DNA from: Candidatus Pacearchaeota archaeon
GTDB taxonomy: Archaea > Nanobdellota > Nanobdellia > Pacearchaeales > UBA284
DNA: 64,000 nucleotides
Assembly (NCBI GenBank): GCA_026395795.1
Contig: JAPLYB010000041.1
Coordinates: 113 to 64,112 of the forward strand
Direction: 5' to 3'
In this document: positions 34,280-45,003 of the stretch, piece after piece
How the letters are laid out: each line of letters starts with the position of its first letter
How positions within the stretch are numbered: the first letter of the stretch is position 1
Notes under the pieces: model-generated
Told to the model about the DNA's origin: nothing
The model's input: the letters and a program-made list of their open reading frames with translations, nothing else
Databases searched by the model: none
Program-made: the position numbers and the translations under genes

Positions 34280-34293
34280 TTTTTATCTATTCT

Positions 34294-34330
34294 GTTCTAT
34301 TTTTTAGAACAAATGTCCTATTTTTAGAAC
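34294..34330. promoter_or_regulatory. tandem GTTCTA-N5-TAGAAC palindromes upstream of the Bro-N gene
   Basis: GTTCTATTTTTTAGAAC (34294-34310) plus a degenerate copy GTCCTATTTTTAGAAC (34315-30). They sit in an ~80-bp block homologous to 41163-41240. Confidence 0.55.
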
Positions 34331-34359
34331 ATCCGCCATTGCTCTTTTTTGCAAAATTT

Positions 34360-35737
34360 ATAATTTTTTTCATTTTCCTTTTTTGGTTTTTATGTTTTAC
34401 ACTTCCAGGCAAAATCTCCACGCTGGAATAAATTGAATTGTGATTTTTTTCTCATTCTCCCTAAATTCTTTTTTCCCATCTTGATTCTTGGTTATCATAA
34501 TTGCTTCTTTAATGTCAAATTTTTCACAAAATCTTAATAAATTTTTTAAATCTTTGTCAATTACATGCTCTTTGTATTTTACTTCAATAGGCAAAATTTT
34601 ATGGTCTTTGTCTAGGATAATATCTACTTCATATTTTTGGGGTGTTCTCCAAAAAAATTTGGCCCCGCTCGTTATGACAATAAGATTTTCAATCAACTTT
34701 GTTTCATCTATATTATCATTTAAAAAAGGGAAAAAAGAAGTTGTATTCAGATATAACTTTTTCATTTTCTTTTCTGATGTTAATCTGTTTTTTGAAAAAT
34801 TATAGACTTTTTTAGTTAAAAAAGACTCTTCTAGGTAATAAAAATAATTAGATAACGTAACCCTGTTTGTGCCAAGTTCATTAGAGAGCGAATCATAATC
34901 AGACAACATCCCGGGATTTGATGCTATTACTTTTAATATTTTTAACAATAACTCTTTATTTTCTGCGGGAAAAATCTTCGGAATATCCTGATAAACAATT
35001 TTTTCAATCATTGTTTTCACATATTGCCCGATTTTTTCTTCACTTTCATTTATTGTTTCAATAAATTGCCTCTTTTGATACACTAAGAATTCCTTCCTTA
35101 TTGACTCTCGAAACAGATTCGGTTTTTTTATCATTTCTTCTTTATTTCTGAATATCAAAAATTCTCTAAAACCTAACGGCTTTAAAGTAAATTCATAAAT
35201 TCTTCCGGCTAACGATTCTTGAGCATATTTTTTAATAAAAAGGGATGCAGAACCAGAAATGAAAAATTTTATATTTGCATAATTATCATAATAATATTTA
35301 ATCTGGTTCTGCCAGTTTTCAAGTTTTTGAATTTCATCCAAGAAAATATATATTTTATCTTTAATCTTTGAAACTTCTTCACCAAGTTTTGTTTCATACT
35401 CATGTATTATCTCTTCTATTTTTGGCTGTTCTTCATCAAAAGAATAAAAAAGGACATGCTCCCTTTTAATTTTCTCTGATTTTATCAAGTGGTCTATTAA
35501 TTGTTTCAGAATCGTGGTTTTTCCAGTTCTTCTTAGCCCAGTCAATGAAATAATCTGCCTTGTCTTTATTTCACTAGTAAGAGTATTCAAAAGCTCTCTC
35601 TTTTTTGGAAAATCATAAAAAAAACCTTCTTGCCAATGGAAATTATGTTTTTCTATCATTTTTGTATACTGATAATACGCAAACTATGGTTTGCATGTTG
35701 TTTAATAATATGCAAAGTATAATTTAAATACTTTTCT
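34360..35737. repeat. ~1.35-kb direct repeat copy 1 (ATPase gene plus 78-bp upstream region)
   Basis: Near-identical to 43541-44918. The 78 nt upstream of the start (35660-35737) is identical to 44841-44918 by eye. Confidence 0.85.
34397..35659 (-). CDS. AAA+ ATPase, COG1373/DUF4143-type (paralog 2)
   Basis: Walker A GLRRTGKT and Walker B FLDEIQ. About 90% identical by eye to the 43578-44840 product. Confidence 0.8.
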   Translation of the reverse strand: MIEKHNFHWQEGFFYDFPKKRELLNTLTSEIKTRQIISLTGLRRTGKTTILKQLIDHLIKSEKIKREHVLFYSFDEEQPKIEEIIHEYETKLGEEVSKIKDKIYIFLDEIQKLENWQNQIKYYYDNYANIKFFISGSASLFIKKYAQESLAGRIYEFTLKPLGFREFLIFRNKEEMIKKPNLFRESIRKEFLVYQKRQFIETINESEEKIGQYVKTMIEKIVYQDIPKIFPAENKELLLKILKVIASNPGMLSDYDSLSNELGTNRVTLSNYFYYLEESFLTKKVYNFSKNRLTSEKKMKKLYLNTTSFFPFLNDNIDETKLIENLIVITSGAKFFWRTPQKYEVDIILDKDHKILPIEVKYKEHVIDKDLKNLLRFCEKFDIKEAIMITKNQDGKKEFRENEKKITIQFIPAWRFCLEV

Positions 35738-42160: not shown

Positions 42161-42172
42161 TTTGTTTTGTTT

Positions 42173-43543
42173 TTAATTTTTAATAACGCAATTTTCATAA
42201 TAATCGCCCTCTAACCATGAGCTTGTGTTTATATAATCTATAAAACTCGAATCATTGGTGAATTGTTTAGTTAACTGCTGCATGATTTCTGAATTTGGAT
42301 TATAAATTTTGCATTCTAAAGTTAAAGGAACAGCTATTGAATTATTGCAGCTTACCTGCAATTCATGTTCAAATCCTTTATCAAAAATATCTTTATTTTT
42401 TGGGCTTTCCCATTTAATACTCATAAAAATACAAGCATTATTCACGCAAAAATCATTTGTACTTTCATTGTCATCATTGCAATCTTCATTTGTTAAACAA
42501 GTTGAATTTGTTTGATTTTCTTCTGAAATATTTTCTATTTCTTTTATCTCATAAGTTATAGAATCAATAAAGATAGTTGCATTATCCAGCTCAAACCTTA
42601 GCTCATAGCTTTCATTTGTTAAATTTAATTCTTCTAAATCGCAAGTATCAGTACAAATCTCTGAAAAGTCTATTTCATAAGTAGTTAGATTTTCTTGGCT
42701 CGCGTTTTCTTCACTAACATTCTCCTGGGTTGTGTTCTCCTGTGTTATATTCTCTTGAATTATATCCTCTTGAGTTATGTTTGTTGTATTTTCTCCTGAA
42801 GAAGATTCTGTTGTATTCTCTGAAGTTACATTTTCTTCTGGACTAGGCTCTTGAGTTGGCTCTGTAGTATTTTCTTCAGGAATTGGTTCTGGCAAAGGCT
42901 GTGTTGTGTCTTCTGAAGTTGAGATTTCTGGAGCAGAAGCATCTCCTTCACTTGTCTCTCCTTCAATATCTCCTTGTCCAGAATTTGCTTCATTTCCTGT
43001 GTTCTCAACTGAGCTTGTTGTTTCTGTGTTTTCATTGCCTGACTGTCCTCCCACAGCCAATCCAGTTATCAATGAGTTGCTTGATGAAGTTGATGAAGCC
43101 CCGCTTAATGAAATATTTTTTTCAAGTTTGGAGCTGTCTAAAAGAAGCTTATCTCCAAGATATACTTTTACAGAACCTTTTTCAGAGTCTTTTTTATTTA
43201 ATAGTAATTTTCCAGAAATCTTTGCATTGATCAACTGCCCATAATTTTCAGGCTTCCAAGTGTACAAATTAGAATTGTTTAGTTCTAGATTCACAATATC
43301 TTCATAAATCGGGTTCTGAGAAATGTTAAATTGATAATGACAAACTCCATCTGCACACAAATCAGTGGTTGTATCATTACTATCATCACAATCCCCATTT
43401 ATTAAACAGCTTTTTTCAAGAACACTGAACCCTGTTAACCCTAATCTGCTTGCGCTTACAAAAAGTAAAGTAAGCAAAACCACAAAAACAAGGATTATTA
43501 GTGCTCTTTTCAGTTCACCTTTTTTCTCTTTTTTGTAATTCAT
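42173..43543 (-). CDS. 456-aa secreted/anchored acidic protein with two 4-Cys modules
   Basis: The N-terminus MNYKKEKKGELKRALIILVFVVLL parallels the DGR target N-terminus. It has CLINGDCDDSNDTTTDLCADGVC and CLTNEDCNDDNESTNDFCVNNAC modules and a Glu/Thr/Asn-rich low-complexity centre. Confidence 0.6.
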   Translation of the reverse strand: MNYKKEKKGELKRALIILVFVVLLTLLFVSASRLGLTGFSVLEKSCLINGDCDDSNDTTTDLCADGVCHYQFNISQNPIYEDIVNLELNNSNLYTWKPENYGQLINAKISGKLLLNKKDSEKGSVKVYLGDKLLLDSSKLEKNISLSGASSTSSSNSLITGLAVGGQSGNENTETTSSVENTGNEANSGQGDIEGETSEGDASAPEISTSEDTTQPLPEPIPEENTTEPTQEPSPEENVTSENTTESSSGENTTNITQEDIIQENITQENTTQENVSEENASQENLTTYEIDFSEICTDTCDLEELNLTNESYELRFELDNATIFIDSITYEIKEIENISEENQTNSTCLTNEDCNDDNESTNDFCVNNACIFMSIKWESPKNKDIFDKGFEHELQVSCNNSIAVPLTLECKIYNPNSEIMQQLTKQFTNDSSFIDYINTSSWLEGDYYENCVIKN

Positions 43544-44918
43544 CTTCCCTCTTTTTTTCTGGTTTTTTTAGTTTTCTTTATATCCCCAAGCAAAATTTCC
43601 ACGCTGGAATAAATTTAATTGTGATTTTTCCTTCATTCTTTTTAAATTCTTTTTTCTCATCCTTGTTCTTAGTGATTATAACTGCTTCTTTAGCATTAAA
43701 TTTTTCACAAAATCTCAATAAATTTTTCAGGTCTTTGCCGGTTACATGCTCTTTGTATTTTGCTTCAATAGGCAAAATTTTATTATTTTTATCTAGGATA
43801 ATATCCACTTCATACTTTTGGGGTGTTCTCCAAAAAAATTTGGCTCCGCTCGTTATAACAATAAGATTTTCAATCAACTTTGCTTCGTCTATATTATCAT
43901 TTAAAAAAGGGAAAAAGGAGGTTGTGTTCAGATACAACTTTTTCATTTTCTTTTCTGAGGTTAATCTGTTTTTTGAAAAGTTATAGATTTTTTTGATTAA
44001 AAAAGATTCCTCTAGATAATAAAAATAGTTAGATAGTGTAACCCTGTTCGTGCCAAGTTCGTTAGAGAGGGAATCGTAATCAGATAACATCCCGGGATTT
44101 GATGCTATTACTTTTAATATTTTTAACAGCAGTTCTTGATTTTCTACAGGAAAGATCTTCGGAATATCTTGATAAACAATTTTTTCAATCATTGTTTTCA
44201 CATACTGCCCGGTTTTTTCTTCACTTTCATTTATTGTTTCGATGAACTGCCTCTTTTGATAGGCTAAGAATTCTTTCTTTATCGACTCTTGGAACAGTCC
44301 AGGTTTTTTTATCATCTCTTCTTTGTCTTTGAATATTAAAAACTCTCTAAAACTTAGTGGCTTTAAAGTAAATTCATAAATCCTCCCCGCTAATGATTCG
44401 AGAGTATGCTTTTTGATAAATAAAGACGCAGAACCAGAAATGAAAAATTTTATATTTGCATAGTTGTCATAATAATATTTAATTTGATTTTGCCAATTTT
44501 CCAGTTTTTGGATTTCATCCAAGAAGACGTATATCTTGTCTTTGATTTTTAAAACTTCTTTGCCAAGTTTTGTTTCATACTCATGTATTATCTCTTCTAT
44601 TTTTGGCTGTTCTTCATCAAAAGAATAAAAAAGGATATGCTCCCTTTTAATTTTCTCTGATTTTATCAAGTGGTCTATTAGCTGTTTCAGAATCGTGGTC
44701 TTTCCAGTTCTTCTTAATCCAATCAACGAAATAATTTGCTTGGTTTTTATTTCATTAATCAGATCATTCAAAAGATTTCTTTTCTTTGGAAAATCATAAA
44801 AAAAACCTTCTCGCCAATGGAAATTATGTTTTTCTATCATTTTTGTATACTGATAATACGCAAACTATGGTTTGCATGTTGTTTAATAATATGCAAAGTA
44901 TAATTTAAATACTTTTCT
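43541..44918. repeat. ~1.35-kb direct repeat copy 2
   Basis: See 34360-35737. Offset is about 9181 bp. Confidence 0.85.
43578..44840 (-). CDS. AAA+ ATPase, COG1373/DUF4143-type (paralog 3)
   Basis: Walker A GLRRTGKT. Near-identical to paralog 2. Confidence 0.8.
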   Translation of the reverse strand: MIEKHNFHWREGFFYDFPKKRNLLNDLINEIKTKQIISLIGLRRTGKTTILKQLIDHLIKSEKIKREHILFYSFDEEQPKIEEIIHEYETKLGKEVLKIKDKIYVFLDEIQKLENWQNQIKYYYDNYANIKFFISGSASLFIKKHTLESLAGRIYEFTLKPLSFREFLIFKDKEEMIKKPGLFQESIKKEFLAYQKRQFIETINESEEKTGQYVKTMIEKIVYQDIPKIFPVENQELLLKILKVIASNPGMLSDYDSLSNELGTNRVTLSNYFYYLEESFLIKKIYNFSKNRLTSEKKMKKLYLNTTSFFPFLNDNIDEAKLIENLIVITSGAKFFWRTPQKYEVDIILDKNNKILPIEAKYKEHVTGKDLKNLLRFCEKFNAKEAVIITKNKDEKKEFKKNEGKITIKFIPAWKFCLGI

Positions 44919-45003
44919 ATTTTTATCATTGCCTTCTTTTTTCTAGTTTATTCATCTTGCTTCTTTTGTTATCTTATCTTTTTATTGTTTTTTATTTTTT
45001 ATT

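What the first reader, a model, noticed from the sequence alone, without database searches (positions are those of the whole stretch)
34286..44920. Segmental duplication with internal deletion brackets the DGR target gene
Two co-oriented copies of a COG1373 ATPase gene flank the target gene. The copies (34360-35737 and 43541-44918) each include an identical 78-bp upstream region containing the inverted repeat GCAAAC-TATG-GTTTGC.

- Downstream of copy 2 lie the 456-aa acidic protein, MNT, HEPN and the palindrome block, in that order.
- Downstream of copy 1 only two remnants survive. One is the first few nt of the 456-aa-type gene (ttcattttcc vs ttcatcttccc). It is fused directly to the last ~12 codons of a HEPN gene plus the palindrome block (34288-34365, homologous to 41163-41240).
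- The copy-1 locus therefore looks like a duplicate of the unit ATPase / 456-aa / MNT / HEPN / palindromes that lost ~2.3 kb internally.

The pair of 1.35-kb direct repeats could mediate excision, inversion or amplification of the ~8-kb segment that carries the diversified gene.
Basis: seen in the sequence. Interest (0 to 1): 0.6.

Follow-up and report, generated by a model that had tools for sequence, protein, structure and literature searches.

The report
Duplicated ATPase unit flanking DGR target
Two old but still exchanging copies of a defence-type ATPase gene bracket the hypervariable surface-protein gene of a tiny archaeon; the downstream copy is a cut-down duplicate wedged into the retroelement cassette, which is ordinary genome patchwork, not a demonstrated switch.

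Summary
Two co-oriented 420-aa AAA_14/DUF4143 ATPase genes (34405-35737 and 43586-44918, minus strand) are 89% identical over 1337 nt. The 78 nt upstream of each are identical. An 87-nt block (34282-34367 vs 41155-41241, 91%, E 2e-28) follows copy 1 directly but lies 2.3 kb beyond copy 2, after the 456-aa, MNT and HEPN genes.

The block's inner end encodes the conserved last helix of this HEPN family, so it is a true HEPN relic. The claimed "ATG of the 456-aa gene" relic is not significant on its own (P 0.07).

New here:
- A sibling DGR cassette from three metagenomes runs target, Bro-N, AlbA, Avd, TR, RT, with no ATPase and no palindromes.
- In the window the 1445-nt copy-1 unit sits between target and Bro-N, flanked by a duplicated ~50-nt Bro-N start. 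Copy 1 is therefore the derived insertion.
- The paralogs are old (dS 0.6) and both under purifying selection (dN/dS 0.09).
- They carry two conversion-like identity tracts, so they still exchange sequence.

There is no evidence for excision or amplification. The only public data were short contigs that cannot test it. Direct repeats would not invert the segment, and recombination between them would delete the only VR found in this 88%-complete assembly. Verdict: real, well explained, ordinary.

The parts
43586..44918 (-). ATPase repeat, copy 2. The gene is 43578-44840 (420 aa, AAA_14 + DUF4143). Its own promoter/leader is 44841-44918.
34405..35737 (-). ATPase repeat, copy 1. The gene is 34397-35659 (420 aa). 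Its own promoter/leader is 35660-35737. 89.2% identical to copy 2.
35632..35737 (-). Perfectly identical 106-nt tract: BRE/TATA-like promoter, leader with inverted repeats, and codons 1-9. Partner tract is 44813-44918. Conversion-like.
   Evidence: P 0.0004; this stretch varies among outgroups
35382..35499 (-). Second near-identical tract (codons 54-93). Third-position differences are 1/40 here against 82/327 in the rest of the gene. Partner tract is 44563-44680.
34368..34404 (-). Spacer after the ATPase-1 stop, ending in an ATG (34372-34370). Possible relic of the spacer and start codon of the 456-aa gene (compare 43539-43585). Weak support.
34282..34367 (-). HEPN-tail/palindrome block, copy 1. 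HEPN relic codons are about 34318-34367 (KKIINFAKKSNGGCSKN). One degenerate palindrome is at 34315-34330 and one perfect GTTCTA-T6-TAGAAC at 34294-34310. The deletion junction is 34367|34368.
41155..41241 (-). HEPN-tail/palindrome block, copy 2. It holds the last 17 codons of the intact HEPN gene plus two perfect palindromes (41167-41183, 41188-41204), upstream of the target ATG at 41127.
33088..33141 (-). Third, shorter copy of the block. It holds HEPN-tail-like codons now ending the NYN gene, one palindrome (33104-33120), and a 3' part that matches copy 1 through the Bro-N ATG context. It lies upstream of avd.
35738..35792 (-). Relic of the Bro-N ribosome-binding region, ATG (35774-35772) and about 12 codons. 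It abuts the start of ATPase repeat copy 1 and is colinear with the sibling's target/Bro-N spacer.
   Evidence: P<0.0003 vs sibling; P 0.004 vs the real Bro-N start
33758..34291 (-). Functional Bro-N gene (173 aa). Homology to the sibling cassette starts 12 nt upstream of its ATG (34279).
42173..43543 (-). 456-aa acidic membrane-anchored protein. Its N-terminus is paralogous to the target N-terminus. Present only after copy 2.
41191..42160 (-). wHTH-MNT (41600-42160) and HEPN (41191-41631) overlapping pair. Present only after copy 2.
35839..41127 (-). DGR target gene (1762 aa) with VR at 35842-35962. It lies between the two ATPase copies.
   Evidence: (D8)
31296..33062 (-). DGR core: Avd (32730-33062), TR (32572-32692) and RT (31296-32384).
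45004..46386 (-). AlbA_2/wHTH regulator 'b', upstream of copy 2. It is the ortholog (81% aa) of the AlbA gene that lies between Bro-N and avd in the sibling cassette.

Best explanation
The locus is a DGR cassette of a small DPANN-type archaeon that has been broken up by defence-type genes through duplication and deletion.

An S-like ancestor ran target, Bro-N, AlbA, Avd, TR, RT. A unit made of [own promoter + COG1373 ATPase, 456-aa gene, MNT, HEPN, palindrome block] is intact upstream of the target (copy 2).

A second copy of that unit now sits between the target and Bro-N (copy 1, 35737-34292). It lost the 2.3 kb from just after the 456-aa start codon to the last 17 codons of HEPN. That loss left the junction at 34367|34368.

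Most likely route (inferred):
1. A tandem duplication ran from the ATPase promoter to about codon 12 of Bro-N. This created the Bro-N-relic|ATPase-promoter junction at 35738|35737.
2. Two microhomology-type deletions in the downstream copy then removed 456-aa/MNT/HEPN and the second target.

Both ATPase genes have been kept by selection and still exchange sequence by gene conversion at their 5' ends.

The repeats are a passive substrate for homologous recombination. A crossover would delete 9181 nt, including the only VR-bearing target found in this 88%-complete assembly. There is no sign that this is a programmed switch.

The confidence given (0.7) is for the core claim: a duplicate of the unit, inserted between target and Bro-N, that lost 2.3 kb. 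The specific route by tandem duplication and two deletions I rate at about 0.45.
For: Shown:
- Repeat geometry and identity.
- The paralogs are mutual best hits: 89% against 77% or less for all others.
- dS 0.60, dN/dS 0.089, both ORFs intact.
- The 87-nt block is significant genome-wide.
- The HEPN relic encodes the family's conserved last helix and matches the tail of the 88%-identical HEPN P0122.
- Sibling cassettes L098/L099/L100 from three samples have target and Bro-N adjacent. They have no ATPase, no NYN and no palindromes.
- Window homology to the sibling runs through the target 3' end, the GC hairpin, the Bro-N RBS/ATG and about 12 codons, and stops exactly at 35737 where the ATPase repeat begins. 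It resumes at 34291, 12 nt before the real Bro-N ATG.
- Identity tracts: a 106-nt perfect run (P 0.0004) and 1/40 against 82/327 third-position differences. Outgroups differ by 33-40% at third positions in codons 54-93 and also vary in the leader.
- Only one VR matches the TR in the assembly, and 13 of 15 TR/VR mismatches fall at TR adenines.

Inferred:
- The order of events.
- Tandem duplication as the origin.
- Microhomology at the junctions. A/G-rich RBS-ATG contexts can be seen.
Against: - Polarity rests on one sibling lineage only. No intermediate state (full-length copy 1, or a second target) was found.
- The HEPN-tail/palindrome block has a third copy at avd, fused to a different gene (NYN). 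The block can therefore spread without the ATPase.
- The block (91%) and the HEPN relic (about 86%) are less diverged than the roughly 40% expected from ATPase synonymous sites. Either they are constrained or converted, or they are younger than the ATPase split.
- The 456-aa start-codon relic is not significant alone.
- Close ATPase homologues elsewhere are solo genes with their own conserved promoter. An independent insertion of a solo copy is therefore conceivable.
- The assembly could not be verified with raw reads. Only short Logan contigs were available, probably from the same sample.
Confidence: 0.7

Rival explanations
1. Two independent events rather than one duplicated unit. A solo ATPase cassette (gene plus its own promoter) was inserted between target and Bro-N. 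Separately, the about 55-87-nt HEPN-tail/palindrome block spread as a portable junction or promoter/operator element to three sites upstream of target, Bro-N and avd. Under this reading no 456-aa/MNT/HEPN genes ever stood after copy 1.
For: - The closest ATPase homologues are solo genes in unrelated neighbourhoods. Homology among them starts at the same BRE/TATA-like promoter.
- The block occurs three times, always just upstream of a DGR core gene, and nowhere else in the genome.
- The third copy terminates NYN, not an ATPase.
- The block is absent from the sibling cassette.
- A similar double palindrome lies 14 nt upstream of a membrane-protein gene in another Nanoarchaeota MAG, L036.
Against: - The two ATPases are mutual closest relatives, so copy 1 came from copy 2's lineage and not from outside.
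- The two blocks are colinear and similarly diverged in both copies.
- Copy 1 of the block extends 16-17 nt further than the avd copy into codons of the conserved HEPN helix.
- No recombinase gene is on the contig.
Confidence: 0.15
2. The direct repeats are a working device: a regulated excision, circle formation or amplification of the 9.2-kb segment that carries the diversified target.
For: - Identity tracts of 106 nt and 73 nt are long enough for homologous recombination.
- Those tracts show that the copies do exchange sequence.
Against: - No contig joint with the expected 9181-nt offset was seen in three runs. The joints listed have 20-24-nt sides and other offsets.
- Overall divergence of 11% and dS 0.6 indicate that the segment has stayed in place for a long time.
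- Excision would remove the only VR found in the assembly.
- No site-specific recombinase is nearby.
- Inversion is impossible between direct repeats.
Confidence: 0.05
3. Assembly artefact. The MAG contig joins two strain variants of one ATPase locus, so the 'duplication' does not exist in any one genome.
For: - The genome is a 44-contig MAG from a sediment metagenome at about 5x word depth.
- Strain variants are visible in a second run.
- A 106-nt identical tract could mislead an assembler.
Against: - The two copies have entirely different flanks on both sides, and those flanks are themselves colinear with a sibling cassette.
- Depth is similar across both copies.
- 11% divergence with dN/dS 0.09 and mosaic tracts looks like paralogs, not strain alleles.
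- A mis-join inside the identical tract would only swap the ATPase bodies and would not remove a copy.
Confidence: 0.05

Closest known systems
Segmental (tandem-derived) duplication followed by deletion and paralog gene conversion, as widely described in prokaryotic genomes
   Same: - Co-oriented paralogous blocks and novel junctions at A/G-rich microhomologies.
- Relics of lost genes at the junctions.
- A mosaic of identical tracts inside otherwise diverged paralogs.
   Different: It sits inside a DGR cassette, splitting the target from its accessory genes. The relics are unusually tidy: a start codon fused to the HEPN tail, and a Bro-N start fused to the ATPase promoter.
COG1373 / AAA_14-DUF4143 ATPases (PADLOC candidate defence family PDC-S01)
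   Same: Both copies have the full AAA_14 + DUF4143 architecture. They hit the PDC-S01 models at E 5e-56.
   Different: Function is untested anywhere to my knowledge. Here the gene is duplicated around a DGR target. Closest relatives are solo genes.
MNT-HEPN toxin-antitoxin type modules (PADLOC PDC-M05A/B)
   Same: An overlapping wHTH-nucleotidyltransferase gene and a HEPN gene form a two-gene module that is conserved in 19 metagenome loci.
   Different: In this subfamily the HEPN stop codon lies inside a palindrome. The 3' tail of the gene has been copied to two further sites without the gene.
Integron gene cassettes ending in attC
   Same: Each inserted non-DGR gene block (HEPN, ATPase-1 relic, NYN) ends in a palindrome-bearing block that overlaps the 3' end of the upstream ORF.
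   Different: - No integrase is on the contig.
- The palindrome arms (GTTCTA/TAGAAC) do not fit the attC core GTTRRRY/RYYYAAC (from my own knowledge of attC).
- The copies carry relics of neighbouring genes, which points to duplication and deletion rather than site-specific exchange.
DGR cassettes of DPANN archaea (DGRs in DPANN are mentioned in the review PMC6349945)
   Same: RT, Avd, and TR/VR with adenine-specific mismatches. The VR sits at the 3' end of a lectin-fold/FGE-sulfatase-type surface protein.
   Different: Target and avd are separated by an inserted ATPase unit, Bro-N and NYN. The closest sibling cassette lacks the ATPase and NYN.

Membership tests
Segmental duplication with internal deletion | Two homologous blocks in the same order and orientation in both copies | tested here: met
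   The ATPase block and the HEPN-tail/palindrome block are colinear. They are 37 nt or less apart in copy 1 and 2344 nt apart in copy 2.
Segmental duplication with internal deletion | The copies are each other's closest relatives (in-lineage duplication, not separate imports) | tested here: met
   89% aa identity to each other; best external hit 77%.
Segmental duplication with internal deletion | Relics of the deleted genes at the junction | tested here: met
   HEPN last-helix codons at 34332-34367 match family alignment A3 and the tail of P0122. The 456-aa start relic is inconclusive (P 0.07).
Segmental duplication with internal deletion | An outgroup shows the unduplicated state | tested here: met
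   Sibling cassettes L098-L100 have target directly followed by Bro-N. The window has a duplicated Bro-N 5' end around the insert. This rests on one sibling lineage only.
Paralog gene conversion | Identity tracts longer than expected from the overall divergence, in stretches that are not unusually conserved in outgroups | tested here: met
   A 106-nt run (P 0.0004) and a 39-codon run without third-position change (P 0.003). Outgroups differ by 33-40% at third positions in codons 54-93 and also vary in the leader.
Recombination-mediated excision or amplification in the population | Reads or contigs carrying the recombinant or circle junction | tested here: inconclusive
   Only short Logan contigs at about 5x were available. 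No joint had offset 9181. The data cannot bridge a 1.3-kb repeat.
COG1373 AAA_14-DUF4143 ATPase | AAA_14 P-loop domain followed by DUF4143 | tested here: met
   PF13173 at E 1e-34 and PF13635 at E 1e-20 in both copies. PDC-S01 at E 5e-56.
IS element or transposon | Transposase, terminal inverted repeats and a short target-site duplication | tested here: not met
   No transposase domain in the unit. No terminal inverted repeats among the repeats found. The flanking duplication is about 50 nt of Bro-N, far longer than a typical target-site duplication.
Integron cassette / attC | A tyrosine-recombinase integrase next to the array, and attC core sites | tested here: not met
   PF00589 hits lie only on contigs C34, C15 and C39, none on C31. 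The palindrome arms do not match the attC core by inspection.
Diversity-generating retroelement (context) | RT + Avd + TR/VR pair with mismatches at TR adenines | tested here: met
   RVT_1 and bAvd. TR 32572-32692 vs VR 35842-35962: 13 of 15 mismatches fall at TR A.

The most novel reading that the evidence does not exclude
The HEPN-tail/palindrome block, together with the near-identical A-rich RBS-ATG contexts of these genes, might act as a portable cassette-end or promoter module. It would let defence-type genes (ATPase, MNT-HEPN, NYN) be shuffled in and out between the core genes of an archaeal DGR. The 1.3-kb ATPase repeats would then allow occasional loss or amplification of the diversified target within the population. 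That would amount to an integron-like or phase-variable organisation around a DGR, without a recognisable integrase.
Probability: 0.08. Interest if true: 0.65.

Novelty: new member of a known kind. Interest (0 to 1): 0.3.

Why it matters
The result mainly clarifies how this archaeal DGR locus came to have its odd layout, with the VR 3 kb away from avd and unrelated genes in between. The ATPase next to the VR is a secondary, duplication-derived insertion, not a DGR accessory gene. Bro-N, by contrast, is shared with the sibling cassette.

The result also warns annotators that the three palindrome blocks carry relics of a HEPN gene, so they are at least partly historical scars.

It shows further that the repeats still exchange sequence. 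The sole VR-bearing target found in the assembly therefore sits on a segment that homologous recombination could delete, which could be checked in population data. None of this changes what is known about DGR mechanism.

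Tried and rejected
- Sibling genomes by DNA. 40 relatives had no syntenic locus at nucleotide level, only surface-protein repeats and weak ATPase hits.
- Palindrome pair in JGI metagenome contigs: no match.
- The 19-mer in GTDB genomes: 51 scattered single hits, mostly bacterial and terminator-like. 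Only L036 looked related.
- Palindrome in 200 genomes of the same order: hits in relatives at about the level of the reversed-pattern control (12 against about 48). The own genome has 4.
- Context of the closest ATPase homologues: unrelated neighbourhoods, no DGR and no MNT-HEPN.
- Context of HEPN relatives: MNT-HEPN pairs only, with no ATPase, 456-aa gene, Bro-N or palindromes.
- The 88%-identical HEPN contig. No DNA could be fetched. It has a gene starting 38 nt after HEPN. I tried to identify that gene as Bro-N with my last protein search and did not find it. Inconclusive.
- Other Bro-N relatives: not DGR-linked.
- Reads. Only Logan contigs were available. Loose ends near 34376 and 43603 match nothing informative in the genome.
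- Literature search for DUF4143 returned nothing useful.
- Considered and rejected: transposon, integron and assembly chimera (see the membership tests and rivals).

Full report
**Layout**

All genes in 29.8-46.4 kb lie on the minus strand. Read 5' to 3' on that strand, the order is:
- AlbA_2/wHTH regulator 'b' (46386-45004)
- ATPase copy 2 (44840-43578)
- a 456-aa acidic membrane-anchored protein (43543-42173)
- wHTH-MNT (42160-41600)
- HEPN (41631-41191)
- two perfect GTTCTA-T6-TAGAAC palindromes (41204-41167)
- the 1762-aa DGR target (41127-35839), with VR at 35962-35842
- ATPase copy 1 (35659-34397)
- a degenerate and a perfect palindrome (34330-34294)
- Bro-N (34279-33758)
- NYN (33761-33123)
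- one palindrome (33120-33104)
- Avd, TR and RT (33062-31296)
- AlbA_2 regulator 'a' (31262-29850)
- the giant surface protein

The genome is a 957-kb, 44-contig MAG, 88% complete. Homologue names and the archaeal-looking gene content point to a DPANN/Nanoarchaeota-type archaeon.

**Checking the observation**

BLASTN and a global alignment give 89.2% identity over 1337 nt between 34405-35737 and 43586-44918. Homology starts abruptly at 35737/44918. The 78 nt before each ATG plus the first 28 coding nt form a perfect 106-nt run.

The second homology, 34282-34367 vs 41155-41241, is 90.8% over 87 nt. E is 2e-28 pairwise and 2e-27 against the whole assembly.

The T-rich spacer from the ATPase stop to a CAT/ATG can be aligned between the copies with three indels. 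It is not significant against composition-matched shuffles (P 0.07). The '456-aa start relic' is thus plausible only by position.

**Is the short block a HEPN relic?**

Read on the minus strand, copy 1 runs ATG then KKIINFAKKSNGGCSKN. The intact HEPN ends ...EEFVKKIINFVKKSKDECSKK.

In an alignment of 14 family members (A3), KKIINF occupies the conserved last helix. The closest external HEPN (P0122, 88% identity, another metagenome) ends KKIINFAKKNKDGCSKK. The inner 36 nt of the copy-1 block are therefore true HEPN coding sequence without the gene. This supports a deletion rather than a HEPN gene that happens to run into a pre-existing element.

In copy 1 the old stop is lost through a 1-nt deletion in the palindrome loop, as expected for a decaying relic.

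**Age and selection**

The proteins share 375 of 420 residues. Nei-Gojobori estimates give dS 0.60, dN 0.053 and dN/dS 0.089. The duplication is therefore old, and both copies are maintained by selection.

They are nevertheless each other's nearest relatives. The next best among 1149 hits is 77% identical.

Differences are not spread evenly:
- The 106-nt perfect run has P 0.0004 under random placement of the differences.
- Codons 54-93 have 1/40 third-position differences, against 82/327 in codons 94-420.
- In comparisons with three outgroup genes, third positions in codons 54-93 differ by 33-40%, and the leader also varies. Constraint alone does not explain the tracts.

I read them as gene-conversion tracts. 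The two copies still recombine, at least non-reciprocally.

**The 78-nt upstream region**

It is the gene's own promoter and leader. Homologues of 76-77% identity from unrelated metagenome contigs share the same GAAAAG-TATTTAAAT box, a palindromic stretch and the spacing to the ATG. These genes are solo genes in unrelated neighbourhoods. That explains why the repeat boundary sits exactly at the promoter.

**Direction of change: a sibling cassette**

The closest Bro-N relative (P0189) lies on three contigs from three samples, L098, L099 and L100. They carry a DGR cassette 84-96% identical in DNA to parts of the window. Its order is:
- a 370-aa FGE-sulfatase-fold target
- a 69-nt spacer
- Bro-N
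- an AlbA_2 gene, 81% identical to window AlbA_b
- Avd (94.5%), TR and RT (84%)
- a large protein whose N-terminus matches the window's giant gene

It has no ATPase, no NYN, no MNT-HEPN and no palindrome.

Window homology to this sibling runs through the target 3' end, the GC hairpin after the stop, and the Bro-N ribosome-binding region, ATG and about 12 codons. It stops exactly at 35737/35738, where the ATPase repeat begins. It resumes at 34291, 12 nt before the real Bro-N ATG.

The 1445 nt from 35737 to 34292 are therefore an insertion relative to the sibling. The insert is precisely the ATPase block plus spacer plus HEPN-tail/palindrome block. It is flanked by a duplicated ~50-nt Bro-N 5' end (relic at 35792-35738; P<0.0003 against the sibling, P 0.004 against the real start).

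**Most likely history (inferred)**

A flanking duplication of that length, together with a relic|promoter junction, is what a tandem duplication leaves. The duplicated segment would have run from the ATPase promoter to Bro-N codon ~12, that is ATPase/456/MNT/HEPN/palindromes/target/Bro-N-5'.

Two later deletions in the downstream copy would give the present state:
- loss of the second target (5.4 kb, from the end of the palindrome block to 8-12 nt before the Bro-N ATG)

All three junctions lie in A/G-rich RBS-ATG-like sequence that offers 3-6 nt of microhomology.

I cannot exclude that an already shortened copy was inserted in one step, or that the block spread on its own.

**Caveats**

- The HEPN-tail/palindrome block has a third copy before avd (33088-33141). 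There the HEPN-tail codons now end the NYN gene, and the 3' part matches copy 1 through the Bro-N ATG context. The block, or pieces around it, has thus been copied more than once.
- The block (91%) and the relic (about 86%) are less diverged than ATPase synonymous sites (41% raw). That implies constraint, conversion or a younger age.
- All three copies sit just upstream of DGR core genes (target, Bro-N, avd) and occur nowhere else in the genome.
- In 200 genomes of the same order, hits are at about the level of the control pattern.
- They may well serve as promoter or operator elements now. That question belongs to a separate finding, and I did not pursue it beyond noting L036.

**Function of the repeats**

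Direct repeats can give deletion or duplication, not inversion. A crossover would remove 9181 nt: one ATPase, 456-aa, MNT-HEPN and the target. The TR has only this one VR partner in the assembly, and 13 of 15 mismatches fall at TR adenines. Such a deletion would therefore orphan the DGR.

Three public runs from the probable source study hold the region only as short Logan contigs at about 5x. None shows a joint with the 9181-nt offset, and the listed joints have 20-24-nt sides. Such data cannot bridge a 1.3-kb repeat, so the test is inconclusive. No tyrosine recombinase lies on the contig.

**Context**

PADLOC places several of these genes in candidate defence families:
- ATPase in PDC-S01
- MNT/HEPN in PDC-M05A/B
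- NYN in HEC-09
- Bro-N in PDC-S13

The DGR cassette has thus become interleaved with defence-island-type genes, a region class known for rapid duplication, loss and exchange.

**Verdict**

The functional speculation is unsupported. The feature is an ordinary, if neatly readable, product of duplication, deletion and gene conversion.

Noticed in passing
window 29826-29921: The 3' end of AlbA_a plus the first ~35 nt of the giant gene are colinear (88%) with the sibling cassette's AlbA-3'-end/avd-5' junction. The avd-like N-terminus of the giant protein is therefore a relic of an AlbA-avd junction. This is a second duplication-and-deletion scar, downstream of the RT.
   Followed up: partly
L098 1-8785 (also L099, L100): Sibling DGR cassette from three metagenome samples: a 370-aa target, Bro-N, AlbA_2, Avd, TR, RT, then a large protein. 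Its upstream flank (L098 1-601) is 96% identical to own-genome contig C12:59341-59949. The cassette therefore sits in a different genomic neighbourhood in the two organisms.
   Followed up: partly
window 33123-33146: The NYN gene's last six codons (KKEQE-stop) derive from HEPN-tail sequence of the palindrome block, in the same frame, with an earlier stop.
   Followed up: partly
L036 600-700: Another Nanoarchaeota MAG has a degenerate-plus-perfect pair of the same palindrome 14 nt upstream of a gene starting MNKRGKL followed by a hydrophobic stretch. This resembles the N-termini of the target and of the 456-aa protein.
   Followed up: no
window 42173-43543 vs 35839-41127: The 456-aa protein shares its signal-anchor and a Cys-rich CxxxxDCxDxNxxTxDxC module (present twice) with the N-terminus of the DGR target (37-40% identity, E 1e-10).
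   Followed up: partly
window 35660-35737 and homologues L011-L013: The ATPase family carries a conserved promoter/leader with an AT-rich palindrome. The palindrome is perfect over 10 bp in L011 and degenerate in the window. It may be an autoregulatory operator that travels with the gene.
   Followed up: partly
own genome C17:26365-26709: A second Bro-N-like sequence in the same genome, 92-94% identical in DNA to parts of the sibling's and the window's Bro-N.
   Followed up: no
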